Assembly (NCBI GenBank): GCA_039587535.1
Contig: JBDHIF010000011.1
Span: forward strand, 1 to 64,000
Length of the DNA stretch: 64,000 nucleotides
Origin: Gemmatimonadota bacterium
GTDB lineage: Bacteria; Gemmatimonadota; Gemmatimonadetes; Longimicrobiales; Gaopeijiaceae
Direction: 5' to 3'
Positions 38 through 22,245 of the stretch are shown here, piece after piece. The notes below the pieces were generated by a model. It was not told where the DNA came from, did no database searches, and saw only the letters and a program-made list of their open reading frames with translations. Position 1 is the first letter of the stretch; every line of letters begins with the position of its first letter. Position numbers and translations under genes: made by a program.

Positions 38-262
38 CATTGGGCCCGATTCTGGGCCCATTGGACCCGGCAGCTTCCGACATCCATTCCTGGCAAGAAC
101 GGCAGATCGTGCGCTCCGCCTTGGATTTACACGGTTTCTTGCCGGATTTCGGCTAGGCTGCTGTCGGCCTGATAAGCGTGAGGTCGGTAGTTCAAATCTA
201 CCCAGGCCCACTTTGGGAAACGGAAGCCCCGCTTGGTCTTAGGTGACTGAGCGGGGCTTCTT
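38..262 (+). ncRNA. Copy 1 of a conserved structured 3'-UTR/tRNA-like RNA element (T-arm GGTAG-TTCAAAT-CTACC plus 6-bp acceptor-like helix GGCCTG/CAGGCC), ending in an intrinsic terminator hairpin (224-262)
   Basis: About 90% identical to 22017-22245. The internal stem GGCAAGAA...TTCTTGCC, the T-loop-like hairpin and the AAGCCCCGCTT..AAGCGGGGCTT terminator are visible directly. It is not foldable as a canonical cloverleaf. Confidence 0.5.
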
Positions 263-281
263 CGTGTTCGGTTGGCAGCGG

Positions 282-310
282 ATTCCCGCTGTTCATTCCC
301 GCTGTTCACG
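282..310. repeat. Tandem 13-bp direct repeat TTCCCGCTGTTCA x2, a candidate integrase arm-type site next to the att-like repeat
   Basis: Direct repeat seen in sequence. The same motif recurs at 4617-4646 and related ATTCCCGCCGTT units at 4153-4200. Confidence 0.4.
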
Positions 311-560
311 TTCCGCCCGCCGCCGTGCGCGCCAAGAGTGCGGCCCGGAGGCGCTCCTGATCGGGTCTCTGGTAGCACTCAACAATCGTCTGGGTGTTCT
401 TCCAACCGCCTAGGTCGGCCAACACCTTCAGCGGTTCATCCACCAGATCCGACGCGAACTTGCGGCGCAGTGAGTGCCAGCCCCGACCCTTCTTCGGCTC
501 CAGCCCAGCCTTCTCCTCGGCCCGCTCCCACCAGTCCCGTGCCAGGTGCCGAGAGACGCT
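306..560 (-). pseudogene. Truncated tyrosine recombinase/phage integrase, C-terminal catalytic fragment only (..GWHSLRRKFAS..LGGWKNTQTIVECYQ..)
   Basis: Only the last ~80 aa (the H-x-x-R and catalytic Tyr region) is integrase-like. The upstream part of the ORF is non-homologous and overlaps a comEA-like gene. It is paralogous to the fragment at 4642-4900. Confidence 0.6.
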
Positions 561-573
561 GTCAGACGGCTTC

Positions 574-846
574 TTAGGGGCAGGGAAGACCCTGAGCCTT
601 AATGTCCCGCAGACGGGCCGCCGCGATTCCGCGCACTCGGACGAGTTCGTCCACTGAGGCGAACCGGCGTTGCCTTCTCGGGGTGATGATTTGTCGAGCG
701 CGCTCAGGGCCGATGTGGATGATCCTGTCGAATTGGGCGGCAGACGCCGTGTTGATGTCCACGCACGCTTGAGCACTCCCTAATGAGGGCGAGAGCAGGA
801 CAAGCGTGAGGACTATGAACAGGGCCTCTTGCAGTCTCTGCCTCAT
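574..846 (-). CDS. comEA: ComEA-like helix-hairpin-helix DNA-binding protein with signal peptide
   Basis: ..VDINTASAAQFDRIIHIGPERARQIITPRRQRRFASVDELVRVRGIAAARLRDIKAQ.. matches the ComEA HhH motif pattern (NTAS..L..LPGIG...A..I...R..G.F.S.EEL..V.GIG). Confidence 0.55.
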   Translation of the reverse strand: MRQRLQEALFIVLTLVLLSPSLGSAQACVDINTASAAQFDRIIHIGPERARQIITPRRQRRFASVDELVRVRGIAAARLRDIKAQGLPCP

Positions 847-996
847 CAGCCTTTCCTCGCCCGGGAGAGGGTCACACGCTGCACCATAGACGCTTCCGCC
901 AGTGGAGGGGCCGGCCAACGCCTTCCCGGCGCAGAGCAGTTGGCTTACGCATGCCCAACGTCCTGGAAATCTGCTGCCGCAGCGGACTGGCTACCA

Positions 997-1383
997 TCAC
1001 CGACACCCGTCTCCGCAGGTGAGGATGAGGCCACCAAGGAAGACGAGTACACCCACCGCGGCGAGTCCAAGGGTACGCACCACCGCAACCCCTCTCCACT
1101 CTACGAGCCGAAGGTTCGCAAGAGCGAAGCTTACTGGCCGCGAATCCACAATACCGTGAAGCGTGTCACCTTCGACGCGAGGGGCGTCAAGGACAACCCC
1201 GGGGCCGTCCGAGGGAAGAACTCGAACGCGGTTCGGTAGGATCTGACGACCGTTGTCCAGGGCCACAACAACCGGCTCGTTCTGCCCGGAAGTCGGAGAG
1301 ACCACGGTGACCGGCTCCCAAGTCGAGCAGCCTGTGATGACGACTGTCAGCGCTATGACGCTGAACCGAAGCCTTGCGCACAT
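997..1383 (-). CDS. Hypothetical lipoprotein (lipobox ..VITGC|S) with C-terminal hydrophobic segment
   Basis: Signal peptide plus Cys lipobox after the M at 'MCARLRFSVIALTVVITGCS'. No recognisable family. Confidence 0.35.
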   Translation of the reverse strand: MCARLRFSVIALTVVITGCSTWEPVTVVSPTSGQNEPVVVALDNGRQILPNRVRVLPSDGPGVVLDAPRVEGDTLHGIVDSRPVSFALANLRLVEWRGVAVVRTLGLAAVGVLVFLGGLILTCGDGCR

Positions 1384-1403
1384 CCAGGACCTCCTTCGGA
1401 GTG

Positions 1404-1496
1404 TCCTAACGGATTGGAATTCTGCTGCGCGGCCCGTTAGATGACCAGCGCAGCGTATCAACTAGTCCTTCCGCGACTGCAGCAATTCCTTGTTAG
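1404..1496. repeat. MITE-like ~90-bp repeat (copy R1) with terminal inverted repeats CCTAAC..GGAATTCTGCTGC / GCAGCAATTCC..GTTAGG, 20 nt upstream of the lipoprotein start
   Basis: Sequence family is shared with 2172-2258 and 3012-3102. There is a partial copy at 953-990. Confidence 0.5.
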
Positions 1497-1879
1497 GGGG
1501 CGTGCCGCTTCGCTCTGAAGTTCACCGACTCGAGCCCCTCGAAATCTGCGTCCTGAGTCCATAGCTCAGCGTCGCTCGCCAGAGTGGTCGCATAGATGAC
1601 ACTGTCGGCCAGTGGGAGCTTGAGCGAGGCTCCCAACTCAGCAGCCTCAATTGCCAAGCCTTCATCCAGGTCCACCACTCGTCCCTGACGCATGGCCGCC
1701 GCCGCCTGAAGTGCGTCTTGTCTGCCACGCTGCCGCAGGACATACCGATAGACCTCGAGGACAGTGATTGACGGGACGATGAGGACACTGGCTTCGTTGA
1801 TCACCCGCCCAAACCACTTCGCGTTGGGGCCGTCGGCGAAGAACTCGATCCAGCCTGACGAGTCGATGACGACCTTCAA
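1493..1879 (-). CDS. vapC: Type II toxin VapC (PIN-domain ribonuclease)
   Basis: MKVVIDSSGWIEFF.. has the N-terminal Asp and the distal ..TQDADF acidic motif typical of PIN. There is a 4-nt overlap with the upstream antitoxin. Confidence 0.8.
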   Translation of the reverse strand: MKVVIDSSGWIEFFADGPNAKWFGRVINEASVLIVPSITVLEVYRYVLRQRGRQDALQAAAAMRQGRVVDLDEGLAIEAAELGASLKLPLADSVIYATTLASDAELWTQDADFEGLESVNFRAKRHAP

Positions 1880-2085
1880 AACTCGCGATCCGGCTCTCGT
1901 TCGAAGTTAGGGTCCATTCCCCTGAGGAATCCCCGCATCTCCGAGATCGGGCGGACCGGGACGAGCTCGATGCGGTCCCCGATCGCGAAGGCTTCGACCT
2001 TCTGGCCCGGCTTGATCTTCAACCGCTCACGGACGGCCTTTGGGATCACCACCTGGTATTTGCTGGAGATCGTAACTGTTGACAA
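1876..2085 (-). CDS. vapB: Antitoxin VapB (AbrB/MazE/SpoVT-type swapped-hairpin)
   Basis: MSTVTISSKYQVVIPKAVRERLKIKPGQKV.. is the classic AbrB/MazE-like N-terminus. It is 69 aa and is coupled to vapC. Confidence 0.75.
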   Translation of the reverse strand: MSTVTISSKYQVVIPKAVRERLKIKPGQKVEAFAIGDRIELVPVRPISEMRGFLRGMDPNFEREPDREF

Positions 2086-2171
2086 GACTATTCCTCCATC
2101 GATGTCCTATACGTCTTACGATAGAGGTACGTGGCCGCGGGCTCAAGAGTTCCGGGGTGGGCTCCTACGCC

Positions 2172-2258
2172 CCCTAACGTCTCGGAACTCTGCTGCCGCA
2201 CCGGCGCGTTACCAGACATACCGAACAGCCTACGCGGACAGCAGCAATTCCTTGTTAG
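2172..2258. repeat. MITE-like repeat copy R2 (more divergent core), upstream of vapB
   Basis: It shares the TIRs CCTAACGTCTCGGAACTCTGCTGC ... GCAGCAATTCCTTGTTAGG. Confidence 0.45.
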
Positions 2259-2992
2259 GTGGAACCCGCTTCCGACGCCACGTCGCCAGTCAGAAGCTCC
2301 AAGGCCCGGTCTATCTCTCCCATGGCCTCCTCCGCCATCGCTCTCAGCGCCGGAAGACTCTGCTGGCGGATCCGAAACGCTGTGGCTGCGTCATCGGTCA
2401 TCAGCCGAGTCAGGACCCTCTCGGCGGCCTCGTCGGGAAGGTCAACCGGCTGACAGATCAGTTCGGCCGCGCTGATGTTTGGGCACGCCTCACGAATCTG
2501 AAGAATGAGTTCTTGAGGAATCGCGCCGCGGACCCCCTTCAGGTACTCGTCACGATAAGGCGCCTGCTGGCTCTCCAAGTTCGACAAAGCCGCATATGCA
2601 CGCTGGATCGCTTCCCTCAGCGCGACAGGCGCAATGAGGTTGAGTCTTCCGGTGGAGATGACGTCGTCGTAGGTAGTGCGGTCAGGCTTCCGTGGATTGT
2701 CTCTTCCCATGTTGTACAACGCGACAATCAGCTCATCCGTACCTTCGGCTGGCGATCCGGTCTCGAAGTAACTCGAGGAAGCAGCCGCATACTCGATCGC
2801 TCTCAAGGCCGATCGGTGAACGCCCTCCACAAAGTCACGCGACTCGCGAAGCTCCGCCAACAGGCGGATTTCGTATTCGGAGCCCAGTGCACGGTCTCGT
2901 CGGTCAGCGCTCCAGGAGTCAACGCCAAGGGCGGCGAGCACACCGACCACGATGATGAGGAACTCGGAGGAGAGCCTCTTTGCCTGCCGCAT
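2255..2992 (-). CDS. Membrane-anchored hypothetical protein, paralogue A (N-terminal TM, ~220-aa extracytoplasmic domain)
   Basis: Start corrected to MRQAKRLSSEFLIIVVGVLAALGVDSW. It is paralogous to 3117-3839 (EFLLIFVGIVAALAVDRW). Confidence 0.5.
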   Translation of the reverse strand: MRQAKRLSSEFLIIVVGVLAALGVDSWSADRRDRALGSEYEIRLLAELRESRDFVEGVHRSALRAIEYAAASSSYFETGSPAEGTDELIVALYNMGRDNPRKPDRTTYDDVISTGRLNLIAPVALREAIQRAYAALSNLESQQAPYRDEYLKGVRGAIPQELILQIREACPNISAAELICQPVDLPDEAAERVLTRLMTDDAATAFRIRQQSLPALRAMAEEAMGEIDRALELLTGDVASEAGST

Positions 2993-3011
2993 GTTCCACC
3001 TCTCGGTTCCA

Positions 3012-3102
3012 CCTAACGTCCCGGAATTCTGCTGCACGGCCCGCCTCCGCACCAGCGCAGCGTATCAACTTGCTCTTCCGCGTCTGCAGCAATTCCTGGT
3101 TA
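3012..3102. repeat. MITE-like repeat copy R3, 20 nt upstream of the start of paralogue A
   Basis: CCTAACGTCCCGGAATTCTGCTGC...CCAGCGCAGCGTATCAACTTGCTCTTCCGCG...CTGCAGCAATTCCTGGTTAG. The core is near-identical to R1. Confidence 0.5.
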
Positions 3103-3116
3103 GACCGACTTCTACC

Positions 3117-3839
3117 CTACTGGTCAAGCGCTTCCCGCACCTCGGTCAGCAACCGTTCCGTGCGCTCACTCCATCGCCGAGCGATACCCTCCGCGGCGAT
3201 CGCATATTTTTCTTGGGAGTTGAGCATCCGCGCGATCTCAGGATCTTCGGTCAAGGTGGACCAGAGAGCGGTTGCATCGGGGGAAGAGGCCCGTTCACAG
3301 TCGAACGCCGGAATCTCCCTGGGACACGCGCGTCCTCGATACAGCTCCGCCGGGACGTACGCTTCACGGAAGGCCCTGAAGCCGAAATAGCTCGGATCCT
3401 CCAAGCGTCGCCGACCGTCAGGGAGGTCTTGAGTGAAGTAGGCCACGATGTGACCCCTGAGCGCGTGGTCCGAGATCAACCGGAGGTTTCCCGTCGCCTC
3501 CAAGTCCCTGAAGCTCGCCTCGCGAGTCGGCTGCTCGAAGCGCCAGCCCGCACGGGTCACGGCCACCATCAAGCCAAAATCTGACGGTCTCGTGTCCTCG
3601 CGGATAGCACTTTGGAGCGCTGCGGCGGCTTCCTGCGCGCGGACGGAGGCCGCGAGCATCTCGTCGAAGATGGCGGCGTTGGCCTCCAGGTCGCTCAGTA
3701 CGAAAGCGAGGTACTCCTCTTCAGCGCGCGACTCGTCGAGGCCTTGCACCCATCGATCCACCGCCAGGGCCGCGACAATCCCAACGAAGATAAGGAGGAA
3801 CTCCGCTACGACCCGCCTGCGGTTGGGCGATTCACTCAC
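3117..3839 (-). CDS. Membrane-anchored hypothetical protein, paralogue B
   Basis: N-terminal TM anchor. Paralogous to 2255-2992. No known family recognised. Confidence 0.5.
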   Translation of the reverse strand: MSESPNRRRVVAEFLLIFVGIVAALAVDRWVQGLDESRAEEEYLAFVLSDLEANAAIFDEMLAASVRAQEAAAALQSAIREDTRPSDFGLMVAVTRAGWRFEQPTREASFRDLEATGNLRLISDHALRGHIVAYFTQDLPDGRRRLEDPSYFGFRAFREAYVPAELYRGRACPREIPAFDCERASSPDATALWSTLTEDPEIARMLNSQEKYAIAAEGIARRWSERTERLLTEVREALDQ

Positions 3840-4152
3840 GAAAGCTCCTTCAGAAGTCGGTGTAACTCTACTTCTACGGACCCGCCGTAAGCCCTTACGG
3901 CGTCTTACGCGGATCCGAGTATGCGCCGCACTTTCCAGCCTGGCAACGCGAACTCCCGGAAGTGTGCGCTGGGGTCCTCAGCATACGCCGGTCCGCGTAA
4001 GTCCCTCGACGCACGAAGACCCCGACGGCGCACCGCCAAGAGGAACACTTTAAAAGTCTCTTTTCGATCCCCTCCCGAACGCTCGCGGAGGAGTCCCACC
4101 TCCTCCTATCGAAGGGGGCCCCTTGGGGGGGTCGTCGTCTCGGGCGGAGAGC

Positions 4153-4200
4153 GATTCCCGCTCTAATTCCCGCCGTTCCCTCCGTTATTCCCGCCGTTCG
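4153..4200. repeat. Cluster of ATTCCCGC(C/T)GTT-like direct repeats (candidate arm-type sites) immediately upstream of RNA-element copy 2
   Basis: gcgATTCCCGCTCTaATTCCCGCCGTTccctccgttATTCCCGCCGTTcgg. Confidence 0.35.
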
Positions 4201-4228
4201 GAGGCGGCATCTTCCGGCACCGTGAATT

Positions 4229-4388
4229 GGCAAGAGTGGCAGATCGTGCAGCCCATCAATGGTTTAGACGATTTCTTGCCGTGATTCGCGCGAAGCGCGA
4301 GGCGCCTGATAAGCGTGAGGTCGGTAGTTCAAATCTACCCAGGCCCACTGAGGCTCCTCGGTCGAGTGACCGAGGAGCCTCTTTCGTT
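4229..4388 (+). ncRNA. Copy 2 of the structured tRNA-like RNA element (diverged 5' half, identical 3' T-arm/acceptor end) with its own terminator hairpin (4351-4388)
   Basis: GGCAAGAG..TTCTTGCC stem, conserved GGCAGATCGTGC, CCTGATAAGCGTGAGGTCGGTAGTTCAAATCTACCCAGGCCCAC, then GAGGCTCCTCGG..CCGAGGAGCCTC-TTTCGTTC. Confidence 0.45.
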
Positions 4389-4523
4389 CAGGTTGGTCGA
4401 GAACTAACGACCTCACGGTCCCACTCAGCTGACTCGGTAGTTCACCCGGAGCGCGCGGTCAGCGCGCGGAGGGGAGCGAGGGCCGGTCAGGTACTGGCGA
4501 CAGCGCCAGCCCGGGAAGCCCGC

Positions 4524-4597
4524 AGCTCAAATCTACCCAGGCCCACTTTTTGGAAGTAGATGCCCCGCTTGGTCTTAGGTGACTGAGCGGGGCTTTT
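4524..4597 (+). repeat. Partial copy 3 of the RNA element (3' ~22 nt att-like core GCTCAAATCTACCCAGGCCCAC) plus a terminator hairpin identical to that of copy 1
   Basis: 4524-4650 is near-identical to 196-312 (core, terminator, 13-bp direct repeats). Confidence 0.5.
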
Positions 4598-4616
4598 GCG
4601 TGTCCGGGTGGCAACG

Positions 4617-4646
4617 GATTCCCGCTGTTCATTCCCGCTGTTCACC
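4617..4646. repeat. Tandem TTCCCGCTGTTCA x2 direct repeat (second copy of the 282-310 arm-type-like repeat)
   Basis: Identical motif and position relative to the integrase fragment. Confidence 0.4.
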
Positions 4647-4900
4647 CTCCACCTGCCGCCTCTCGTGCCGATAGTGCGGCCCTAGGGCGCTCCTGATCGG
4701 GTGTGTGATAGCACTCGACGATCGTCTGGGTGTTCTTCCAGCCACCAAGGTCGGCCGACACCTTCGACGGTTCATCCACCAGATTCGACGCGAACTTTCG
4801 TCGCAGGGAGTGCCAGCCCCCACCCCGCTTCGGCTCCACGCCAGCCGGGTCCTCGGCCTTGCGCCACCAGTCCCTGACCAGGTGCCTGGAACAAGGCCTA
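4642..4900 (-). pseudogene. Second truncated tyrosine integrase C-terminal fragment (..GGGWHSLRRKFASNLVDEPSKVSADLGGWKNTQTIVECYHTPDQE..)
   Basis: Paralogous to 306-560. The upstream part of the 277-aa ORF is low-complexity and non-homologous. Confidence 0.6.
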
Positions 4901-5637
4901 GTAGATGGGGCGCCGGGGGGATGTAGGAGTCCCCGATTCCAGGCGCGTGTCTCGCTACGGGCCTCCAGGGCCTCGTAAGCTCCCTCGGTGAGAGGCGTCA
5001 CACGCTCGAGACCAAGTTTGTCACTCTCAGTGCGCCAGCGGACGCTTCTCGCCCTCAAGTCCGCGTCCATTTCGGTCGTTGAGGCCGAAGGCGGCTGCTT
5101 TGTCGACTGGCGCGCAAGCTTCGAGGTGGCTGAGGGGCCGGCTGATGAGGCCTGCGGAATGATGAAGGGTGTGTATGAGGAAGGCATGTCTGCCCTGCGG
5201 GAGGCCCACGCCGGATGGGTACACCGGTCGACGTATGCGGGCGGGGCGGTAGGTACTGGATAGGTGGTGTCCGGTGCCCTCCCGTTCCCTTTGGCATGCA
5301 CCCCGACCCGCGTCTCACACATCTGTCCGCCACGTCTCACTCGGCTCGATCTGAAGGGCTTGGCGCGTTGGGATTGGACACGACAACCCGGGCACGGCCA
5401 GGACGACCGGTAGCCCAATGCCAATCCCAGCAACCGCGGCGTGAATCGGTCCGGACCCCGCTGTCTGACGGCCAAGCTGCGTCAGCAGCCATGCCGTTAT
5501 GGGGATTCCCAGGAAGGCACCCGTGCCCAGCTGAGCGATGGAGCGGCGACCACAGGTAAAGGCCAGACTGGAGTTGCGCGCTCCCACCACGGTTCGAACA
5601 CCGATCTCTCGGGTCCGCTCCGAAACCGAGAAGGAAG

Positions 5638-5669
5638 GGGTCTAGACGAGTTCTTGCCGTGATCCGCGA
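5638..5669 (+). repeat. Fragment of the RNA element 5' half (GGTCTAGACGAGTTCTTGCCGTGATCCGCG versus copy 2 GGTTTAGACGATTTCTTGCCGTGATTCGCG) upstream of amtB
   Basis: 28/30 nt match to 4261-4290, so this is an integration scar. Confidence 0.4.
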
Positions 5670-5775
5670 TATTACCGCTCGTTGATCAAGTGGACATAAT
5701 CGACGGGGCGCCGTAAGATCTTCCGCTCACGTATCAGCATGACTCCACCTCAACCCCGAGAAGGAACTGCTGCCC

Positions 5776-7077: not shown

Positions 7078-7091
7078 GGCGAGTTCTTGCC

Positions 7092-7427: not shown

Positions 7428-7434
7428 GGGCGTC

Positions 7435-8871: not shown

Positions 8872-8891
8872 CGGCTGCAGAAGGATCGATC

Positions 8892-10196: not shown

Positions 10197-10220
10197 ACCT
10201 CAAGGTCCTGGAGGCTGCGG

Positions 10221-12497: not shown

Positions 12498-12559
12498 GGG
12501 ACGGGCCGGCGCTGCGTTGGGGATTCGCGACAGACTGACTTAACACTTCGTAGAGGCGC

Positions 12560-13444: not shown

Positions 13445-13458
13445 GTGTGGCGTAGGCG

Positions 13459-15053: not shown

Positions 15054-16729
15054 TCGAGCTCGGCACGATCACGGGGGGAGCGGAGGGTGCCGTTCGGGAC
15101 GCGCGCAGGAAGGTTCACGCGGCTCTCGAGCGGTTGACGGCGGATGACATGCTGGCCAGTCGGATCGCTTCGGTCACCTCCCAGATCTTTCGGGCGATCG
15201 AGCGCGGTGCGAATCCAGGCAGGATCATCGTTCGCTTCGATGAGGCGGGAGCCCAGCCTACGTTCGTTCTCGACCTGATCGGTGTCGGCGGTGAGGTCGA
15301 CGAGGCGACGGCCGCATCGTTCTTCGATCAGGTCGTTTGGGTTCGGGTCGGCGATGTACCGTGCCTGCGGCTTGGTCTCTACATCCACATCGCCCCGGGA
15401 TTGGAGCTTACCGAGCGCCGCGTCGCGGAATTGCGCGGCGTGATCGAGCAGAAGGGGAGGGATGCGCTGATGCAGGAGCTCACCCTGAAGAACCGGGAGC
15501 TCCAGGATTCGTTCGACAACCTCCGTCGGACCACCACGGCCAAAGAGCGGATGGAGAGCGAGCTCAACATCGGTCGGGACATCCAGATGAGCATGCTGCC
15601 GCTCGAATTTCCGGCGTTCCCGCACCGCACCGACTTTACGGTATTCGCTACCCTCGAGCCTGCGCGGGAGGTCGGAGGGGATTTCTACGACTTCTTCCTC
15701 CTCGACGAGGATCGCTTCTGTTTCTGTGTTGGAGATGTCTCCGGCAAAGGGGTGCCTGCGGCACTCTTCATGGCCGTCACCAAGACGCTTATCAAGTCGC
15801 GCGCGACCAACGATTTCTCACCAGCCAGCATTCTCACGCACGTCAACGACGAGATCTCGACCAACAACGACTCGGCGATGTTTGTGACGCTCTGGCTGGG
15901 CATCCTGGACGTGACGTCCGGAGCGCTGGAGTACACGAACGCCGGACATAACCCGCCTTATCTCCTGCGCCACACGGGGGAGGTGGTGCGGTTGGACGAG
16001 CGGCACGGTCCCGTGCTCGGTGCTGTGGACGGACTCGTCTATTCCGAGGGCTCCGGTCAGTTGGAGCGCGGTGACGTCGTCTTCGTGTACACCGACGGTG
16101 TCACCGAGGCGATGGACCCGGACGGGCAGCTCTACGAGGAGGACCGCCTCGTTGAGGTCCTTCGGGCGAGCGATATCGATTCGGTGGAGTCTTTGGTTCG
16201 TGCATCGACCGACGACGTGTGGCGTTTTCAGGCCGACGCGGAACAGGCCGACGACGTCACCGTGCTGGCGGTCGAGTTCTCCGGCCGGCCCGGTGGCTCC
16301 GAAGGCGTCCACATTCTCGAGCTGTCAGTTGCGAATCGACTCGAAGAGATCGACTCCGTCAACGAATCCTTCGAGGCGTTCGCAGCCGAGCACGGGCTCC
16401 CGGAGAAGGTCCGGAGAAGTATGAAGCTCGTTTTCGACGACTTGTTGAACAACGTGATCTCGTACGCATACGAGGACGAAGAGGAGCATCGCATCGGCGT
16501 GCGCGTCGAGTTGTCCTCCGATCGGGTCGCCGTACGCATCAGTGACGACGGGCACCCGTTCAATCCTTTCGGCCGGAATGCGCCGGACACGGCGCTGGCC
16601 CTGGGTGCGAGGGAGATTGGAGGTCTCGGTATCCACCTCGTGCAGAACCTGATGGACGAGGTCTCGTACACGCGGCGAACCGATGAAAACGTCGTTCTGC
16701 TGGTGAAATACCTATCAAATTCGGAATGA
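15050..16729 (+). CDS. RsbU-like PP2C phosphatase fused to a C-terminal RsbW-like GHKL kinase domain (N-terminal regulatory domain plus coiled coil)
   Basis: The PP2C has ..GGDFYDFF..CVGDVSGKGVPAALFMA..YTDGVTEA.. The C-terminal HATPase_c has ..DDLLNNVISYAY..ISDDGHPFNPF..GLGIHLV.. Confidence 0.65.
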   Translation: MIELGTITGGAEGAVRDARRKVHAALERLTADDMLASRIASVTSQIFRAIERGANPGRIIVRFDEAGAQPTFVLDLIGVGGEVDEATAASFFDQVVWVRVGDVPCLRLGLYIHIAPGLELTERRVAELRGVIEQKGRDALMQELTLKNRELQDSFDNLRRTTTAKERMESELNIGRDIQMSMLPLEFPAFPHRTDFTVFATLEPAREVGGDFYDFFLLDEDRFCFCVGDVSGKGVPAALFMAVTKTLIKSRATNDFSPASILTHVNDEISTNNDSAMFVTLWLGILDVTSGALEYTNAGHNPPYLLRHTGEVVRLDERHGPVLGAVDGLVYSEGSGQLERGDVVFVYTDGVTEAMDPDGQLYEEDRLVEVLRASDIDSVESLVRASTDDVWRFQADAEQADDVTVLAVEFSGRPGGSEGVHILELSVANRLEEIDSVNESFEAFAAEHGLPEKVRRSMKLVFDDLLNNVISYAYEDEEEHRIGVRVELSSDRVAVRISDDGHPFNPFGRNAPDTALALGAREIGGLGIHLVQNLMDEVSYTRRTDENVVLLVKYLSNSE

Positions 16730-16745
16730 AGGAGTATTACGGATC

Positions 16746-17078
16746 ATGAACATCTCGGTCAGCGTCAACGGAGACGTCACTGTCGTCGGCTTCGAGGGGA
16801 ATCTCGACACGAACACGGCGCCCGAAGCGGAAGCGCGCCTGGATGAGCTGGCGAGTGGGGGGGGCGGCAAGATCCTGATCGACTTCGCCGATCTCGACTA
16901 CATCTCTAGCGCCGGGCTTCGAGTGCTTCTGGCGACCGCGAAGAAGCTGCGTGGTGCAGGAGGCAACCTTCGACTGTGCAGCCTCAACGAGATGGTTTCG
17001 GAGGTATTCGAGATCTCGGGCTTCAGCACGATCTTCGCGGTGTTCCCAACGGAAGCGGAGGCGCTGGAGGGCTTCTGA
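16746..17078 (+). CDS. Anti-sigma-factor antagonist-like STAS protein (RsbV/SpoIIAA family)
   Basis: 110 aa with ..KILIDFADLDYISSAGLRVLL.. and a conserved Ser in DYISS. Confidence 0.75.
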   Translation: MNISVSVNGDVTVVGFEGNLDTNTAPEAEARLDELASGGGGKILIDFADLDYISSAGLRVLLATAKKLRGAGGNLRLCSLNEMVSEVFEISGFSTIFAVFPTEAEALEGF

Positions 17079-17197
17079 TGGTCGATGCTCATTTGGGTTC
17101 GCATAGTGCATCGCCGGGTGTCGTCTCCGAGGAATCGCGCACTCTGTGACATCGTAGTCGTGTCTAGTCGGACGGCTGCATTTTTCGGGAGTCTGCT

Positions 17198-19786
17198 GTG
17201 AATATCGTTATTGCGGACAGCGTCGTTCGTGGAACGCTGAGCCCGGAGCGGCAGTTCCACGGCATTCCCTCGAACCTCGGTGCCCGCGAGATCGCCCGGC
17301 TCATGGGCCGGGGTCGAGCATATGGCGAAGGCCCCCTGCCGTCGATTATCCGAGCAGCGGCGGCATCAGGCGGGCGCACGGGTCTCGTGCTGCTCCGTGA
17401 GGTGGCACCGCAGGACGAGGCAGGCGCGTCGAACGGTGTATCGGGAGCTCGTGAGGCGCTCGCGGAATGGGTCGACCCGGTTCGATCCGTAGCCGCTGCG
17501 GCATCGGCGCTCGATTGCGCTCCCGGGCGAATTCCCTGGCGCACGCTGATCAAAAGGATCGCCGGCGTGGCGGGTGTCGAAGAGAGTTCCGTAGCCGACG
17601 GTATCGCCGACCTCGGCTTCCTCGTGGTGGGATGCCAAACGGAGGAGCGGATCCAGGCGATCGCGACATTCCTGAGGACTGTCCTCGGTTTCGAGCGCGT
17701 CGCTGTAAGTCCCCACCTCGTAGGGAGTGCCACGGCCGAAGCGCACTACGCGGTGCTACGCCACAACCTGCCTCGGTCCGGCGTGAACGTACTTCTCGAT
17801 CTGGGTGAGGCAGCCAGGTGGGTCGACATCGATCCCGATCGTGCCGGGCTCGCGGGAGGTGCGCCTTGCGTGATCGGGCCGCGTGAAGCTCGCGAGCAGA
17901 TGGAGGCCGACGCCCAGCGCATCGTCCAATTGATCTGCATGCACTGGACGAGGGCGAAACTGCGCGCTCTGGCAGGAGGGTTCAGCGGGAGTCTGCTTTT
18001 CCTCGCCGAGGGCTTGAAGGGCGAGGCGCGGACTGAGCCGATGGTGATCAAGATCGACGCCTTCGCTCAGATGCGACGTGAGCTCGACGGCTACCATCAG
18101 GTGAAGGACCTCTTTGGCAAGCACGTGCCCACGTTCGGGTACCCGGTCCGTCAGGGCAGCCTGCTCGGTGTCGGGATGGAGCTGGCAGCGATGAAGGGCG
18201 ACCCAACTACGCTGCAGGACGACTTCGAGAAGGCGGACTCAGAGTCTCTGCTGGTACGCTTTCTCACCCGGCTCGAGAAATCTCTGGACCTCCTGTCTGA
18301 AAAGCTCTACGGCAACACGCTAGAGCGTGGCAGCGTCGCCCCGTTCCGGATTTTCGGGCTGCACTCGGCTCAACAGATCGTGTGGCTGAGGGAGAACGCT
18401 ACGATCATTCAAGGCTATTTCGATGAGTCCAGCCACTCCGTTGAAAACGTCGATCTGGACCAGCTCGAGAATGTGGCACGCTTGATAACGCGGAATCCCG
18501 ATGCGGTCCAGTCCGAGCTCTGTCTGCAGCACGGCGACCTGAATCTCGCCAACGTCATCTGCGACGAAGGCGACAACGTGTGGTTCATCGACTGGACGCA
18601 CAGTGGAATCCACCCGCTGGAACTCGACTTCGCGAAGCTCGAGAACGACGTGAAGTTCGTGATGAGCAAGGACTTCGATGTCGATGATCTACCCCGGCTG
18701 CACGCATTCGAAGAGTACCTTCTCAACCAGAGGATCCCGGGTTCCGCAGAAGAGCTTCCGGACGCGTTGAAGTTCGCGAAGTGGGATCTGCGCTTCCGGA
18801 AGATCCTCGCCGCCGTGCGTCTGATTCGTCAGCGCTGTGACCGGCTCAAAGAGGGTGATGATTGGCTGGTCTATCGGGTGGCCTTGCTGCGATATGCCAT
18901 GCACACGCTCAGCTTCGATCAGCGCAGGGGAGGGGGTGAGTGTGACGAGACTCAGCTCATGTATGCCCTGTACTCGTGCGAGTCGCTCTCGCTTTCGCTC
19001 GTTGCCGACGATTTTCACCTCAAAATTCGCGCCGAGCGGCCCGCGTCGTACCCCGAACGCCAGCGCATCTCGATCGACGAGTCGCTGTGGCTTCTGGATT
19101 GCGAAGATTACGCCCCTCCCTACCACGTCGATCAGACCGTGTTGGAAGCGGCGGGTGATCGCGGCGACAAGGGGTGGGCGGATCCGGAAGAGGTGGACTC
19201 TGCCGTGCTGGCCGAGCGACCGGCACGCTTCCGGGACGATGAGGGACGGCCGCTGAACCCGCGTGGCCGCACGGGGATCGCTGGCCGGGGACTTCTGGGC
19301 CTATGGGGCGCCAACGCGTCGGTCGTGGGTGTCGTGCTGCGTACCAGCGCGGTGACGGGTGAACTCCAGATCCTGCTCGGTTCCAGCGAGGACGACCCGA
19401 CGCTCCAGGTGCCGAAGGGGTTCCTCTTCCCGGACGAACAACCAGAAGACGGTCTTCTCCGCGTCATGCAGGTGGAAGCCGGTTGGCGACCTCAGGGGGC
19501 GCCGATCCCGTTGAGTGACGGCTACGCGTACGACGCCCGCCAGACGGACCACGCCTGGGTCGAGCAGCGAGCGTATCTGTTCGACCCTGCGGAGGAGGAC
19601 GTTCCGGATCTCTTCGACCCGGCGGGTGATCTCGACGAGGTCTCGTGGTGGCCCCTGGATGTGGAGACGATGACCCGGATTCCGGCGGGTCAGGCTCCGG
19701 TGATCAACGAGGCGCTGGAAGCCGCACGCGGGGCGGGGCGGCTCGACGAAGAGCTGGCGGGGCGACTGATCCGCAGGGCCGTCTGA
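17198..19786 (+). CDS. Three-domain protein combining an N-terminal isochorismatase-like domain, a choline/ethanolamine-kinase (APH-fold) domain and a C-terminal NUDT9-like Nudix domain with a degenerate Nudix box
   Basis: The kinase region has HGDLNLANVICDEGDNVWFIDWTHSG (Brenner motif plus DxE/W). The Nudix region has ..NPRGRTGIAGRGLLGLWGANASVVGVV.. (NUDT9 signature) and the box GFLFPDE-x7-RVMQVEAGW (REx2EE degraded to RVMQVE). The N-terminal region has ..LVVGCQTEERIQAI.. resembling the G-x-C/T-D motif region of cysteine hydrolases but lacking the Cys. Confidence 0.5.
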   Translation: MNIVIADSVVRGTLSPERQFHGIPSNLGAREIARLMGRGRAYGEGPLPSIIRAAAASGGRTGLVLLREVAPQDEAGASNGVSGAREALAEWVDPVRSVAAAASALDCAPGRIPWRTLIKRIAGVAGVEESSVADGIADLGFLVVGCQTEERIQAIATFLRTVLGFERVAVSPHLVGSATAEAHYAVLRHNLPRSGVNVLLDLGEAARWVDIDPDRAGLAGGAPCVIGPREAREQMEADAQRIVQLICMHWTRAKLRALAGGFSGSLLFLAEGLKGEARTEPMVIKIDAFAQMRRELDGYHQVKDLFGKHVPTFGYPVRQGSLLGVGMELAAMKGDPTTLQDDFEKADSESLLVRFLTRLEKSLDLLSEKLYGNTLERGSVAPFRIFGLHSAQQIVWLRENATIIQGYFDESSHSVENVDLDQLENVARLITRNPDAVQSELCLQHGDLNLANVICDEGDNVWFIDWTHSGIHPLELDFAKLENDVKFVMSKDFDVDDLPRLHAFEEYLLNQRIPGSAEELPDALKFAKWDLRFRKILAAVRLIRQRCDRLKEGDDWLVYRVALLRYAMHTLSFDQRRGGGECDETQLMYALYSCESLSLSLVADDFHLKIRAERPASYPERQRISIDESLWLLDCEDYAPPYHVDQTVLEAAGDRGDKGWADPEEVDSAVLAERPARFRDDEGRPLNPRGRTGIAGRGLLGLWGANASVVGVVLRTSAVTGELQILLGSSEDDPTLQVPKGFLFPDEQPEDGLLRVMQVEAGWRPQGAPIPLSDGYAYDARQTDHAWVEQRAYLFDPAEEDVPDLFDPAGDLDEVSWWPLDVETMTRIPAGQAPVINEALEAARGAGRLDEELAGRLIRRAV

Positions 19787-19788
19787 TC

Positions 19789-20733
19789 GTGTCTCTCCTG
19801 AACCAAGAACGCGCCGCGCTCGACGGATTCCGCTCCGCGCGGCCTCTGGTGACGAGGTCCGACGCCCTCGAGGAGGCTGCAGCGAATCGAGCTGATACGG
19901 ATCGACCGGTGGAGGAGCTCGTGTGGACGACGTTCCTCCTGCGTACGGTGCTCGAGGCGGGTCGGACCGTCCGCGCCGTACCTCCGTCCGTGTTGGAGCT
20001 CAAGCGAGACGGGTCACCGGTGACCGCGCTCGAGCGTGACATCGAGCTCGAAATCAAAGAGGCTCTCGAGGTGTTCGAACCCGAGGCGGTCTTCGTAGGT
20101 GAGGAAAGTGGCGGGTGGCTGCACGACGCGGGTTGGACACTCAGCATCGATCCCATCGATGGCACGTGGGCGTTCCTCTCGCACACGGAGACATTCTCCG
20201 TGGTGATGAACCTCTTTCTAGAAGGCCAGCCCTTCATGGGCGTCGTGGCGAGTCCGTTGACCGGTGAGATCGGTTACGCGGCAGCGGGTGGAGGGACCCG
20301 GCTCGTGCGCCTCGACGTCCTCGGCGAAGGCGACCAGGGGTTCGCGCTACCGTTGGGCGATCGAGACTCCAAGAAGACCCTCGTGAACTTGCACCCGGCC
20401 GAACGAGGCTCGCGGCTGGTGTCGGCCTTCTACGAAGCATGGGAACGACGGGACGTCCGTATGGTCCGTGCGCCCGGTGGATCCCCGTCGTGGGCCATGC
20501 TCGAGGCGGCGCGGGGACACTTCACTTATGTGAACGAGTGGGCCAAGTCCGCAGCGGATCCGTGGGATCTGGCTGCAGGCGTCCTCCTCGTGAACGGAGC
20601 GGGCGGCGTGGTCGTGGATCTCGACGGCCAACCGATCGATCCCGTGGGCCACATCGGCCCATTCGTCGCCAGCGTGTCCGAGCAGCAGTGCTCACGCGTC
20701 TTGTCGATCGTACGCGAGGCCTTAAGCCCATGA
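19789..20733 (+). CDS. Inositol monophosphatase / CysQ-family phosphatase (3'(2'),5'-bisphosphate nucleotidase-like)
   Basis: It has ..FVGEESG.., DPIDGT and WDLAAG motifs. The start was moved to GTG 19789, just after the upstream stop, because the upstream part of the 19645 ORF overlaps the previous gene. Confidence 0.65.
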   Translation: MSLLNQERAALDGFRSARPLVTRSDALEEAAANRADTDRPVEELVWTTFLLRTVLEAGRTVRAVPPSVLELKRDGSPVTALERDIELEIKEALEVFEPEAVFVGEESGGWLHDAGWTLSIDPIDGTWAFLSHTETFSVVMNLFLEGQPFMGVVASPLTGEIGYAAAGGGTRLVRLDVLGEGDQGFALPLGDRDSKKTLVNLHPAERGSRLVSAFYEAWERRDVRMVRAPGGSPSWAMLEAARGHFTYVNEWAKSAADPWDLAAGVLLVNGAGGVVVDLDGQPIDPVGHIGPFVASVSEQQCSRVLSIVREALSP

Positions 20734-22016
20734 GTTTTTGGCGGACCTCCGAGACGCCACCGGTGTCGACCGGCGCCAGACTGAGAATCGTCGGCGTCGT
20801 CCTCGTCTTTGTCCTCGTTGCAGGGTCCTTCCTCGCCGGAGTCGAAACCTCGGGCCTCGAAGCGACGGAGGCGGGCTCGATTCTCGCGTGGATCTACTAC
20901 GCAGCGGGGCTGTTCGTCTTCGGTGGATTGGATCTCGGCACTCCGATCGGTGGGCCAATCGCTGCGCGAGGGATGCTGTGGGTTGCGTACTTCTTGGCGC
21001 CCGCGATCACGACGACCACGGTTGTGGAAGCAGTCATTAGGCTCGTCCGCCCGGCTCGGTCGCCGGCAGCATCGGTCACGGGCCACCTGATCCTGGTCGG
21101 GGCCGGCCCGATCGGCCTGGCGTACCTCAAGGCCGTTCGTCGGGTCGATCCTGATGTCCCAGTGCTCATCGTGGATCGCTTCGAGGGTGAGGTGACACTT
21201 GCCGAGGTCGAGCGCTTGGGTGGGGTTCATCCCGTTTCCGTGGATCCACGGCGGCCGGCGGCCCTCGAAGTCGTGGGGTTGGAGCGTGCCGATCGGATGG
21301 TCGTGGTGACGGACGACGACCTCACCAATCTCGAGGTGGCATGGGCGGCGCGGGCAGCTCGGGCGGACCTCCCCATCGCCGTGCATGTGGCCGACCTCAC
21401 CCTGCTTCGGCCCGTCAATCGGCTCGTGCGGGACCAAGCCCGAGCCGCGGATCCGGGCGGAGCACCGCCCCTGGTGTTCAACACCCACAGGATCGGAGCA
21501 CTGCACCTGTACGAGCGCTTCCTCCACCCGCATTTCGAGGGTACACGGTACGAGGACGTTGTCGTGCTCGGCGGATTCGGGCGCTTCTCGCAGACCATCC
21601 TGGAGCTCTTGAGGGTGACGGCTGCGGATGAAATCGAGCGATTGGTCGTGGTCGACCCCGATGCATCGAGGAAGGTACGTCAATTCGCGGTGGACGTACC
21701 CCTGGAAGTCCTGAGTTTCACGACGGTGGACGGCGACCTCGAAGACCCCGGGACGTGGGCACGGGTCGACGATGAGGTCGCGGGGCTCGAGGCCACTCCG
21801 GTGTATCTGCTCGCCTCGTCCGACGAGGTCGTGAACTTCCGGGCTGCCATGCTCCTGCGGGCCCGCTCGAGGGAGCCGCGGGTCTTCGCTCGGTGCTTCC
21901 ACCGCGGCCAGTTTGCAGAGTCACTCGCGGAGCAGCGTGATTTCGAACTGCTCGCGTTCGAGGACGTTCTTCGCGATGCCCTGGTCGAACACTACGAGGG
22001 GCTCAAGACGGTGTGA
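20730..22016 (+). CDS. 2TM pore-loop ion channel with two C-terminal RCK/TrkA-N (NAD-binding Rossmann) domains and a non-canonical filter (..FVFGGLDLG..)
   Basis: TM1, a pore-helix-like AWIYYAAGLFVFGG and TM2 are followed by two GxGxxG Rossmann domains (LILVGAGPIGLAY.., VVVLGGFGRFS..). The start overlaps the IMPase stop (ATGA). The 3' end is duplicated at window start. Confidence 0.6.
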   Translation: MSFWRTSETPPVSTGARLRIVGVVLVFVLVAGSFLAGVETSGLEATEAGSILAWIYYAAGLFVFGGLDLGTPIGGPIAARGMLWVAYFLAPAITTTTVVEAVIRLVRPARSPAASVTGHLILVGAGPIGLAYLKAVRRVDPDVPVLIVDRFEGEVTLAEVERLGGVHPVSVDPRRPAALEVVGLERADRMVVVTDDDLTNLEVAWAARAARADLPIAVHVADLTLLRPVNRLVRDQARAADPGGAPPLVFNTHRIGALHLYERFLHPHFEGTRYEDVVVLGGFGRFSQTILELLRVTAADEIERLVVVDPDASRKVRQFAVDVPLEVLSFTTVDGDLEDPGTWARVDDEVAGLEATPVYLLASSDEVVNFRAAMLLRARSREPRVFARCFHRGQFAESLAEQRDFELLAFEDVLRDALVEHYEGLKTV

Positions 22017-22245
22017 CATTGGGCCGGTTCTTGGGCCCACTCGACCCGGTAGCTTCCGACGTCACATTCCGGCAAGAACGGCAGATCGTGCGCCCCGCCT
22101 TGGGTTTACACGGTTTCTTGCCGGAATTCGGCTAAGCTGCTATCGGCCTGATGAGCGTGAGGTCGGTAGTTCAAATCTACCCAGGCCCACTTTTGGAAGT
22201 GATGGCCCCGCTTGGCTTTGGATGGCCAAGCGGGGCTTCTTCGTT
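22017..22245 (+). ncRNA. Copy 4 (best-context copy) of the structured tRNA-like 3'-UTR RNA element with terminator (22204-22244), immediately downstream of the channel gene
   Basis: Same architecture as copy 1 with ~90% identity over ~225 nt. Confidence 0.5.

What the first reader, a model, noticed from the sequence alone, without database searches (positions are those of the whole stretch)
38..22245. Recurrent ~220-nt structured RNA with a tRNA-like T-arm/acceptor minihelix that is not a tRNA
Full copies at 38-262, 4229-4388 and 22017-22245 share a stem GGCAAGAA..TTCTTGCC (GGCAAGAG..TTTCTTGCC in copy 2, a G-U-compatible change), a conserved GGCAGATCGTGC and an invariant 3' end. That 3' end is GGCCTG-ATAAGCGTGAGGTC-GGTAG-TTCAAAT-CTACC-CAGGCC-CAC, a 6-bp acceptor-like helix stacked on a T-arm with no D or anticodon arms, and each copy is followed by a terminator. 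The two variable internal segments are of equal length and each can form its own hairpin. Copies 1 and 4 lie directly after the stop codon of paralogous RCK-channel genes, so it is a 3'-UTR element or 3'-derived sRNA, and it is the target for integrases. It could also be the acceptor piece of a two-piece (permuted) tmRNA or an unknown tRNA-like sRNA class.
Basis: partly seen in the sequence, partly recalled or inferred. Interest (0 to 1): 0.65.

Follow-up and report, generated by a model that had tools for sequence, protein, structure and literature searches.

The report
tRNA-Ile fragments at integrase attachment sites
The repeated "tRNA-like RNA" is not a new RNA gene: it is the scar that integrating mobile elements leave, made of the 3' half of a tRNA-Ile gene joined to a conserved element-end module, which is an ordinary kind of feature.

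Summary
The repeats are real: 38-262, 4229-4388, 22017-22245, plus a partial copy at 4526-4593.

- **3' end.** The "acceptor/T-arm minihelix" is the 3' half of a tRNA-Ile(GAU) gene, running from the anticodon loop CTGATAA to the discriminator base.
- **5' part.** I call the conserved 5' part (GGCAAGAAC-GGCAGATCGTGC...TTCTTGCC) X. In about 70 metagenome contigs X sits exactly 25 nt upstream of the anticodon loop of many different tRNA halves: Ile, Pro, Arg, Val, Ala, Lys. It is sometimes joined to a reversed 5' half. Integrase-arm-like direct repeats precede it.
- **Integrases.** Homologues of the window's tyrosine integrases lie, in 6 of 6 informative loci, right after an intact tRNA plus terminator plus two arm repeats. 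That is the canonical attL arrangement.
- **What the copies are.** They are att junctions (attR-type or tandem-array) of a decayed array of anticodon-loop-targeting integrative elements in a Gemmatimonadota genome.
- **What was excluded.** There is no tRNA, tmRNA or Rfam hit and no convincing covariation. "Copy 1" follows only an 84-nt gene fragment, and the closest RCK orthologue lacks the element.

The one open point is why X is so well conserved. Interest is low.

The parts
1..37 (+). Last 37 nt of an 84-nt 3' fragment of the RCK (TrkA_N) gene. It is a remnant, not a paralogous gene.
   Evidence: L001 and L002 extend the window leftward. Homology to 21933-22016 stops after 84 nt and is preceded by another arm-repeat block.
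38..91 (+). Class-b arm-type direct repeats (TGGGCCC twice) followed by the conserved box CCCGGCAGCTTCCGACAT. This is the P-arm of an element end.
   Evidence: The same architecture lies upstream of X in dozens of metagenome loci.
92..143 (+). X1: conserved imperfect inverted repeat GGCAAGAAC GGCAGATCGTGC ... TTCTTGCC.
   Evidence: Covariance model hit of 78.7 bits.
144..168 (+). 25-nt spacer between X and the anticodon loop. Its length is constant across the family and its sequence is variable.
169..210 (+). tRNA-Ile(GAU) 3' half, from anticodon loop CTGATAA to discriminator A. This is the att identity block, copy 1, and the left junction of island 1.
   Evidence: 88.6% identity over 44 nt to E. 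coli tRNA-Ile genes. Aligned to an intact tRNA-Ile in L057. 100% identical to 4304-4349 (family D4).
223..260 (+). Element-borne terminator hairpin GAAGCCCCGCTTGG..GAGCGGGGCTTC.
   Evidence: Homologous hairpins follow the intact tRNAs next to family integrases.
279..306 (+). P' arm: two direct TTCCCGCTGTT repeats 13 nt apart, just before the integrase stop codon.
   Evidence: 11 matches against 2.3 expected, clustered at the att sites. An identical block follows the intact tRNA-Arg in L130.
306..990 (-). int1: frameshifted remnant of a tyrosine integrase gene.
   Evidence: Pfam Phage_integrase hit. tblastn with the L057 integrase, 58% identity.
991..4149 (.). Island 1 cargo: PIN toxin (1493-1879, minus strand) with its antitoxin, three unknown ORFs, and 3-4 copies of a palindromic intergenic repeat.
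4150..4228 (+). P arm of island 1: TTCCCGCCGTT-type repeats, three to four of them, plus the box GGCGGCATCTTCCGGCAC.
4229..4305 (+). X2 (4229-4280) plus its 25-nt spacer (4281-4305).
   Evidence: Covariance model hit of 81.7 bits.
4306..4347 (+). tRNA-Ile 3' half, copy 2. This is the attR of island 1.
4350..4381 (+). Terminator after copy 2. Its sequence differs from the other three terminators.
4526..4545 (+). Partial copy 3: T-loop to discriminator of tRNA-Ile only.
4562..4642 (+). Terminator (4562-4593) and P' arm repeats (4619-4642) of a second class-a element remnant.
   Evidence: Repeat D1: 212-511 matches 4548-4847 at 85%.
4642..5475 (-). int2: tyrosine integrase ORF. Only its C-terminal half is homologous to full-length (about 385 aa) family members.
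5639..5668 (+). Orphan fragment of X (..GACGAGTTCTTGCCGTGATCCG) with no tRNA half after it.
   Evidence: (family D7).
20439..22016 (+). Full-length RCK/TrkA_N gene. Its stop codon abuts the arm repeats of copy 4.
22017..22147 (+). Class-b arm repeats, conserved box, X4 (22071-22122) and 25-nt spacer (22123-22147).
   Evidence: Covariance model hit of 82.6 bits.
22148..22189 (+). tRNA-Ile 3' half, copy 4, with A->G at 22153 in the anticodon loop.
22204..22237 (+). Terminator after copy 4. The G+C content rises to the level of the flanks beyond this point.

Best explanation
Each 'copy' is a recombination junction of tyrosine-integrase integrative elements that insert into the anticodon loop of tRNA genes.

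**Anatomy of the unit**
- Three to four arm-type direct repeats.
- A conserved segment of about 115 bp, holding the box CCGGCAGnTyCCGrCAT and the inverted repeat X.
- A 25-bp spacer ending in a partial copy of the 5' strand of the anticodon stem (the left core site).
- The tRNA-Ile(GAU) sequence from the anticodon loop to the 3' end.
- An element-type terminator.

**How it works**
- The element's attP carries the tRNA 3' half and a terminator, so integration rebuilds the target tRNA.
- The rebuilt side is attL: intact tRNA, terminator, two P' repeats, then the integrase gene reading toward the tRNA.
- At the other end (attR), or at the joint between two elements stacked in tandem, the arm repeats and X are left fused to a tRNA 3' half.

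**The window** holds a decayed array:
- an orphan class-b element end (X1);
- a 4.1-kb class-a island (212-4348: dead integrase, PIN toxin-antitoxin pair) bounded by identical 46-bp tRNA-Ile halves;
- a second class-a integrase remnant (4526-5668);
- a second class-b element end (X4) at 22017-22189.

**Shown:** the tRNA identity of the 3' end, the break at the anticodon loop, the integrases, the arm repeats, X joined to many tRNAs, and the canonical attL in relatives.

**Inferred:** that X acts as DNA, as a platform for the integrase or for accessory or bending proteins within the P arm; also the order of events in the array.
For: **tRNA identity of the 3' end**
- 168-211 matches E. coli tRNA-Ile genes at 88.6% over 44 nt.
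- It aligns with an intact tRNA-Ile(GAU) in L057 from the anticodon loop through the terminator, with a compensatory T-stem difference.

**Integrases and arm repeats**
- Tyrosine integrase genes lie immediately after copies 1 and 3.
- TTCCCGCYGTT repeats cluster only at 283-306, 4167-4198 and 4619-4642. These sites flank the att cores.
- Island 1 is flanked by 100%-identical 46-bp repeats (family D4).

**X across other loci**
- About 68 distinct X junctions were found. At least 47 continue, after exactly 25 nt, into 3' halves of Pro-UGG (12), Ile-GAU (10), Pro-GGG (8), Ala-UGC, Arg-CCU, Val-UAC, Arg-CCG or Lys tRNAs.
- A few continue into reverse-complemented 5' halves.
- Two classes of arm repeats lie upstream of X.

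**Integrase homologues (mostly Gemmatimonadota)**
- In 6 of 6 loci with sequence downstream, the integrase sits 45-100 nt from an intact tRNA (Arg-CCG, Val-UAC or Pro-UGG), with a terminator and two direct repeats in between.
- One such locus, L138, is from the same assembly as L001.

**Tandem joints**
- At the X-half-terminator-integrase joints the P and P' repeat classes differ (window copy 1, L106, L115, L133). This is what a joint between two different elements in a tandem array should look like.

**Composition**
- G+C is 0.62-0.635 between the outer repeats and 0.67 on both flanks.

**Literature**
- attP of about 250 bp carrying a tRNA gene fragment, anticodon-centred crossover sites, 3' and 5' fragments, and tandem arrays are all described (PMC4383910).
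Against: - No intact tRNA-Ile, and not even a 5' half, lies in the window or in the 5.2 kb to its left. The regenerated target is therefore missing.
- No related locus captured both ends of one element with cognate tRNA pieces.
- In L057 an intact tRNA-Ile plus integrase plus X is followed by an Arg-CCG half, not an Ile half.
- Both class-b ends in the window lack a class-b integrase.
- The RCK gene is followed by arm repeats and X in two genomes whose upstream genes are syntenic and look chromosomal.
- X is better conserved than the arm repeats, the spacer or the core. This is not a standard property of att arms.
- A few divergent copies show symmetric or compensatory changes in the inverted repeat.
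Confidence: 0.82

Rival explanations
1. X is a functional structured nucleic acid belonging to the element. It would be either an RNA read from X through the tRNA half to the terminator, or a single-stranded DNA hairpin, and it would take part in or regulate recombination, for example in target choice. The tRNA half would still be an att block.
For: - X is strongly conserved among elements whose arm repeats, spacers and target tRNAs all differ.
- The spacing to the crossover site is a constant 25 nt.
- A hairpin of about 52 nt is predicted in every copy.
- G-U-compatible changes occur on the + strand (pairs 21-44 and 22-43).
- One pair switches UA<->CG.
- L012:10676 shows a GC->AU double change, and L133:17913 an AT->TA swap.
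- A terminator always follows the unit.
Against: - RNAalifold finds no covariation (term 0.06).
- The named structure pairs 88.8% of cells against 88.3% in shuffles.
- Most of the helix is invariant, in part because the search pattern fixed those bases.
- Several divergent copies break the outer helix without any compensating change (L025:750, L081, L133:11325).
- No sigma-70-like promoter lies upstream.
- No Rfam family matches.
- Palindromic protein-binding sites would show the same symmetric changes.
Confidence: 0.12
2. One reading: a 3'-UTR element or 3'-derived small RNA of the RCK channel gene, ending in a tRNA-like acceptor/T-arm minihelix. This would be a new class of tRNA-like sRNA that integrases happen to target.
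For: - Copy 4 starts at the RCK stop codon.
- A 60%-identical RCK gene in L004 is also followed by X.
- A terminator follows each copy.
Against: - The closest RCK orthologue (82% identity, L003) has no X (no covariance model hit).
- Copy 1 follows only an 84-nt gene fragment.
- Copy 2 follows no such gene.
- Among about 70 X loci, only L004 has RCK upstream, and no gene is conserved to the left of X.
- In L004 the 3' part is an Ala-type tRNA half, and no acceptor-like pairing partner lies next to its anticodon loop.
- The proposed minihelix is not the minimum-free-energy fold in any copy.
Confidence: 0.04
3. The acceptor piece of a two-piece (permuted) tmRNA, or a degenerate functional tRNA.
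For: The T arm and 3' acceptor strand are intact.
Against: - ARAGORN, which detects permuted tmRNA, finds nothing, and Rfam tmRNA and tRNA models do not reach threshold.
- The sequence is Ile-GAU, not Ala-like.
- There is no coding piece, no tag reading frame and no 5' half.
Confidence: 0.01

Closest known systems
tRNA-gene fragments marking the ends of genomic islands and prophages integrated by tyrosine integrases (the Islander signature; anticodon-loop 'A' sublocation of Williams 2002)
   Same: - A 3' tRNA fragment that begins at the anticodon loop and runs to the discriminator base.
- A tyrosine integrase gene next to it, reading toward the tRNA.
- Direct repeats that bound an island.
- Tandem arrays and decayed remnants.
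- A few cases with 5' fragments in the opposite orientation (PMC4383910).
   Different: - The intact cognate tRNA-Ile is missing from the window and its left flank.
- The junctions carry an unusually conserved module of about 115 bp (X) at a fixed 25-bp distance from the crossover site. X is shared by elements that target at least 8-10 different tRNAs.
Complex attP sites of lambda-type integrases (arm-type sites, core, accessory-factor sites)
   Same: - Direct repeats on both sides of the core (P and P' arms) that differ between integrase subgroups.
- About 100 bp between the P-arm repeats and the core, where lambda has its IHF, Xis and Fis sites.
- The integrase gene lies next to P'.
- An HTH excisionase-like small gene is coupled to the integrase in several relatives.
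   Different: No binding has been shown. The integrase is very divergent, with only weak NCBIfam hits and no PDB sequence hit. The segment between arm and core is an inverted repeat conserved across subfamilies.
Actinomycete integrative and conjugative elements of the pSAM2/pMEA type, whose att identity segments run from the anticodon loop to the 3' end of various tRNAs (from my own knowledge)
   Same: One integrase family is spread over many tRNA targets, all at the anticodon-loop sublocation. Some relatives here carry conjugation genes (VirB8, a T4CP-like protein and VirB11-like ATPase in L136).
   Different: The hosts here are a different phylum (Gemmatimonadota MAGs). Sequence relatedness to those elements was not tested.
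Two-piece tmRNA and tRNA-like small RNAs (bacterial Y RNA/YrlA type)
   Same: Only the presence of a T arm and a 3' acceptor strand.
   Different: - There is no paired 5' acceptor strand that is conserved across the family.
- The tRNA identity varies with the element's target.
- No model matches.

Membership tests
tRNA-gene fragment at an integrative-element att site | The sequence is an end fragment of a real tRNA gene, running to its 3' end | tested here: met
   88.6% identity over 44 nt to E. coli tRNA-Ile. Alignment to the intact tRNA-Ile of L057.
tRNA-gene fragment at an integrative-element att site | The fragment starts at a canonical crossover sublocation (anticodon loop, T loop or T/acceptor junction) | tested here: met
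   Homology starts 0-5 nt before the anticodon loop in the window and in at least 47 related junctions. Copy 3 starts at the T loop.
tRNA-gene fragment at an integrative-element att site | A tyrosine integrase gene lies inside the bounded segment, next to one end | tested here: met
   int1 at 306-990 and int2 at 4642-5475.
tRNA-gene fragment at an integrative-element att site | An intact cognate tRNA gene lies at the other end, in the same orientation | tested here: not met
   There is no tRNA in the window, L001 or L002, and no tRNA-Ile 5' half. Integrase homologues in 6 of 6 other loci do abut intact tRNAs, but their distal ends were outside the fetched sequence.
tRNA-gene fragment at an integrative-element att site | Direct repeats of the fragment bound an integrase-containing segment | tested here: met
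   167-212 equals 4304-4349 at 100% identity.
tRNA-gene fragment at an integrative-element att site | The element excises and integrates at this site | not testable with these tools
   This needs junction-spanning reads or an experiment.
Lambda-type complex attP | Arm-type direct repeats on both sides of the core, matched within one element | tested here: met
   Island 1 has TTCCCGCYGTT on both arms. L057 has GTGTCC/GGGCCC-type repeats on both arms. All six attL loci have two direct repeats before the integrase stop codon.
Lambda-type complex attP | Integrase and accessory proteins bind the arm and inter-arm DNA | not testable with these tools
   No binding data are available.
Functional tRNA | A complete cloverleaf detected by tRNA models | tested here: not met
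   ARAGORN finds 0 genes. Rfam tRNA scores 16.3 bits against a cutoff of 29, with the D and anticodon arms deleted.
tmRNA (one- or two-piece) | A tRNA-Ala-like domain plus a tag reading frame, detected by ARAGORN or Rfam | tested here: not met
Structured non-coding RNA (known or new) | A match to a curated family | tested here: not met
   No Rfam hit in the window or in 7 related loci, apart from one true tRNA.
Structured non-coding RNA (known or new) | A common structure supported by covariation | tested here: inconclusive
   - RNAalifold covariation term is 0.06, with 0 compensatory pairs.
- The named 14-pair structure has 1 pair with changes on both sides and is 88.8% paired against 88.3% in shuffles.
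- The sequence set is biased because the search pattern fixed 21 nt.
- Divergent copies give mixed signals.

The most novel reading that the evidence does not exclude
X is the signature of an undescribed, widespread family of integrative elements, mainly in Gemmatimonadota. The family keeps one arm module while retargeting among at least 8-10 tRNA genes. In the most novel reading, X acts as a folded RNA or single-stranded DNA element in recombination or its control, rather than as a passive protein-binding arm.
Probability: 0.1. Interest if true: 0.6.

Novelty: new member of a known kind. Interest (0 to 1): 0.22.

Why it matters
The result removes a false candidate for a new class of tRNA-like RNA. 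It also shows how tRNA 3' halves at island junctions can mimic "minihelix" RNAs.

As a by-product it defines a compact sequence signature: arm repeats, then X, then 25 nt, then an anticodon loop. This signature marks the ends of one family of tRNA-targeting integrative elements in poorly studied Gemmatimonadota and in many marine, sediment and soil metagenomes. It could be used to delimit their islands. The unexplained conservation of X is a small question worth passing to people who study integrase attP architecture.

Tried and rejected
- **tmRNA or permuted tmRNA, tRNA, any Rfam family:** nothing.
- **An intact tRNA-Ile just left of the window:** contigs L001 and L002 reach 1.4 and 5.2 kb further left. 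They show an 84-nt RCK fragment, a third arm block and ordinary genes, but no tRNA.
- **A tRNA-Ile 5' half anywhere in the window:** none.
- **A conserved 3'-UTR element of RCK:** rejected. L003 lacks it, and RCK is upstream of X in only one of about 70 loci.
- **X in viral contigs:** only 3 chance matches, none of them the X family.
- **X as coding sequence:** unlikely, because 1-nt length differences occur inside it.
- **A conserved gene to the left of X:** none.
- **A second copy of the cognate tRNA half in related loci, to capture a whole island:** found only in the window and as a remnant in L048.
- **A group I intron in a tRNA:** considered and rejected. There is no 5' exon and no Rfam intron hit.
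- **oriT or a promoter in X:** no supporting feature.
- **Literature search for the X sequence:** only chance matches.


Full report
**1. The observation**

The window holds three full copies of the unit (38-262, 4229-4388, 22017-22245) and a partial fourth (4526-4593). The 21-mer TTCAAATCTACCCAGGCCCAC occurs four times against none expected by chance. The repeat finder groups the copies into families D3, D4 and D6. G+C-rich hairpins with T tails follow copies 2, 3 and 4, and copy 1 has the homologous hairpin. ARAGORN finds no tRNA or tmRNA anywhere in the 64 kb. Rfam at gathering score finds nothing.

**2. What the 3' end is**

The "invariant 3' end" is the 3' half of a tRNA-Ile(GAU) gene. 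Window 168-211 matches the annotated tRNA-Ile genes of E. coli at 88.6% over 44 nt. It aligns base for base with an intact tRNA-Ile(GAU) found in a related metagenome contig (L057). The match runs from the last bases of the anticodon stem through the loop CTGATAA, the variable loop, the T arm and the acceptor strand, and on into the terminator. The only T-stem difference is compensatory, GGAAG/CTTCC against GGTAG/CTACC.

In the permissive Rfam search, the hit that bears on this region is the tRNA model with its D and anticodon arms deleted, at 16.3 bits against a cutoff of 29. Copy 4 carries an A->G change at 22153 in the loop, so the end is not strictly invariant.

**3. Surroundings in the window**

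- Tyrosine integrase genes lie on the minus strand right after copy 1 (306-990, frameshifted) and after the partial copy (4642-5475).
- The motif TTCCCGCYGTT occurs 11 times against 2.3 expected. It is clustered at 283-306, 4167-4198 and 4619-4642. These positions lie between terminator and integrase stop codon, and just upstream of copy 2.
- The segment 212-4348 is thus bounded by identical 46-bp tRNA halves (family D4). It has matching repeats on both arms and holds a dead integrase and a PIN/antitoxin pair. It is a small integrated island.
- Two contigs from public assemblies (L001, L002) are 99.5-100% identical to the left end of the window and extend beyond it.
  - Copy 1 is preceded by only 84 nt of the RCK gene's 3' end.
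  - That fragment is itself preceded by a further arm-repeat block, then by ordinary genes. No tRNA is present.
- G+C is 0.62-0.635 between the outermost repeats and 0.67 on both sides.

**4. The 5' part (X) elsewhere**

RCK orthologues were fetched from species-representative genomes.
- The closest (82% identity, a Longimicrobiales MAG) has no X and no tRNA half after the stop codon.
- A 60%-identical one (Gemmatimonadota MAG, L004) is followed by X, but there X is joined to an Ala-UGC-type tRNA half.

After removing an unrelated coding-sequence match, about 68 distinct X junctions remain.
- At least 47 run, after a spacer of exactly 25 nt, into the anticodon loop and 3' half of a tRNA: Pro-UGG 12, Ile-GAU 10, Pro-GGG 8, Ala-UGC 4, Arg-CCU 4, Val-UAC 3, Arg-CCG 2, Lys 2.
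- In four loci X is joined, at the same spacing, to the reverse complement of a tRNA 5' half.
- Upstream of X there are always three to four short direct repeats, mostly of two sequence classes (a third in a few loci), and a conserved box CCGGCAGnTyCCGrCAT.
- No gene is conserved to the left of X.

So X is tied to the anticodon-loop crossover site and to the integrase arm repeats. It is not tied to RCK or to tRNA-Ile.

**5. The integrase side**

Homologues of the window's integrase are about 385-aa proteins, and the few that carry a name are mostly labelled Gemmatimonadota. Ten contigs were fetched around seven of them. In six of the six loci where an intact tRNA was found (four other loci had none or too little flank), the integrase stop codon is 45-100 nt from that tRNA, in convergent orientation. 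The tRNAs are Arg-CCG in four loci, Val-UAC in one and Pro-UGG in one. In between lie a terminator (in four of the six) and two direct repeats 13 nt apart.

In L130 the repeat block is identical to window 279-306. One of these loci (L138) comes from the same assembly as L001. One relative (L136) carries type IV secretion genes, so some family members are conjugative.

This is the canonical attL. The tRNA species are the same set that is seen fused to X.

**6. Synthesis**

The free element would carry, in order: arm repeats, X, spacer, core, tRNA 3' half, terminator, arm repeats, integrase gene. Integration in the anticodon loop rebuilds the tRNA next to the integrase. It leaves the arm repeats and X fused to the displaced tRNA half at the far end.

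Where X, tRNA half and terminator are followed directly by an integrase, the two arms belong to different repeat classes. This is seen at window copy 1, L106, L115 and L133. It is the expected signature of a joint between two different elements in a tandem array. All of this is described behaviour of tRNA-targeting islands: attP of about 250 bp with a tRNA gene fragment, anticodon-centred sites, 3' and 5' fragments, and tandem arrays (PMC4383910).

**7. Is X an RNA?**

- Single sequences fold into a hairpin of about 52 nt, with modest z-scores of -0.8 to -2.8.
- On 51 distinct X sequences RNAalifold keeps only an invariant 6-bp helix and an invariant 3-bp one, with a covariation term of 0.06.
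- A hand-drawn 14-pair structure is 88.8% paired against 88.3% in shuffles, and has one pair that switches UA<->CG.
- The set is biased because 21 nt were fixed by the search pattern. I therefore built a covariance model and collected divergent copies.
  - Several break the outer helix without compensation.
  - Two show a symmetric or compensatory change.
- No promoter-like site precedes X.
- A direct repeat of CGGCAGAT about 31 nt apart (read from the sequences) hints at protein binding to DNA. So does an excisionase-like HTH gene coupled to the integrase in relatives.

I conclude that an RNA role is not supported, though it is not excluded.

**8. What remains unexplained**

- The regenerated tRNA-Ile is absent.
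- The two class-b ends in the window have no class-b integrase.
- RCK is followed by X in two genomes although its upstream neighbours are syntenic and look chromosomal.
- L057 pairs an intact tRNA-Ile with an Arg half. This could be an assembly chimera or recombination between elements.
- X is better conserved than any other part of the site.

**9. Verdict**

The feature belongs to a known kind, tRNA-gene fragments at integrase att sites. It represents a previously uncharacterised element family with a conserved arm module. Interest is low.

Noticed in passing
window 954-985, 1405-1500, 2173-2262, 3012-3107: Three to four copies of a palindromic intergenic repeat of about 95 nt (CCTAACG-N3-GGAAtTCTGCTGC ... 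GCAGCAATTCC-N2-GTTAGG). Each lies just upstream of a minus-strand gene of island 1. It could be a shared operator/promoter or a small mobile repeat.
   Followed up: partly
window 1493-2085 (minus strand): A PIN-domain toxin with an upstream MazE/AbrB-type antitoxin inside the small island.
   Followed up: partly
L056 ~6150, L078 ~340, L103 ~500, L033 ~3470: X is joined, at the same 25-nt spacing, to the reverse complement of a tRNA 5' half (Ile, Ile, Ala, Val). Some family members therefore sit in the opposite orientation or displace the 5' fragment.
   Followed up: partly
L059, L104, L121 (about 60 nt after X): tRNA halves of different identity (Pro-GGG, Pro-GGG, Arg-CCG) are all cut after the T-loop GGTTCGAG and continue with the same sequence CCGAG(C/G)GGCC. 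This looks like a second, unrelated element family that uses the T loop.
   Followed up: no
L130 9627-10001, L132/L133 9630-9998, L136 9609-10004: A conserved protein of 122-131 aa abuts or overlaps the integrase start. It carries an excisionase-like HTH motif (AAEESGYSxDHLxRLxREGxIxNAGRxGAPRIA) and is a candidate directionality factor for this element family.
   Followed up: partly
L136 1-9235: One integrase-family element carries VirB8, a T4CP-like protein, a VirB11-like ATPase, ArdC and a DUF5906 primase-like gene, so it is a conjugative element integrated at tRNA-Pro(UGG).
   Followed up: no
L134 3320-10464: Next to another family integrase (but across the intact tRNA-Val from it, so not shown to be element cargo) lie a UvrD-like helicase/PD-(D/E)XK protein, BilA/BilB/BilD-like ubiquitin-like conjugation genes and a TIR-domain protein. 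This is probably an anti-phage defence cluster.
   Followed up: no
window 10629-17078 and 17198-19786: A partner-switching (stressosome-like) cluster: HAMP-STAS, protoglobin-STAS, STAS, and HATPase/SpoIIE phosphatase-kinase proteins. It is followed by an 862-aa TCAD9-kinase-NUDIX fusion. The last STAS gene, the fusion and its downstream genes are syntenic with L004.
   Followed up: no
window 53767-54066 and 54634-54933: A 300-nt direct repeat at 78% identity, 867 nt apart (family D2). Not examined.
   Followed up: no
window 4430-4470 and L120 (about 90 nt after its X): The stretch between copy 2's terminator and the partial copy 3 (..CTCGGTAGTTCACCCGGAGCGCGCGGTCAG..) resembles the sequence that follows X in L120. 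It may be the end of yet another element.
   Followed up: no
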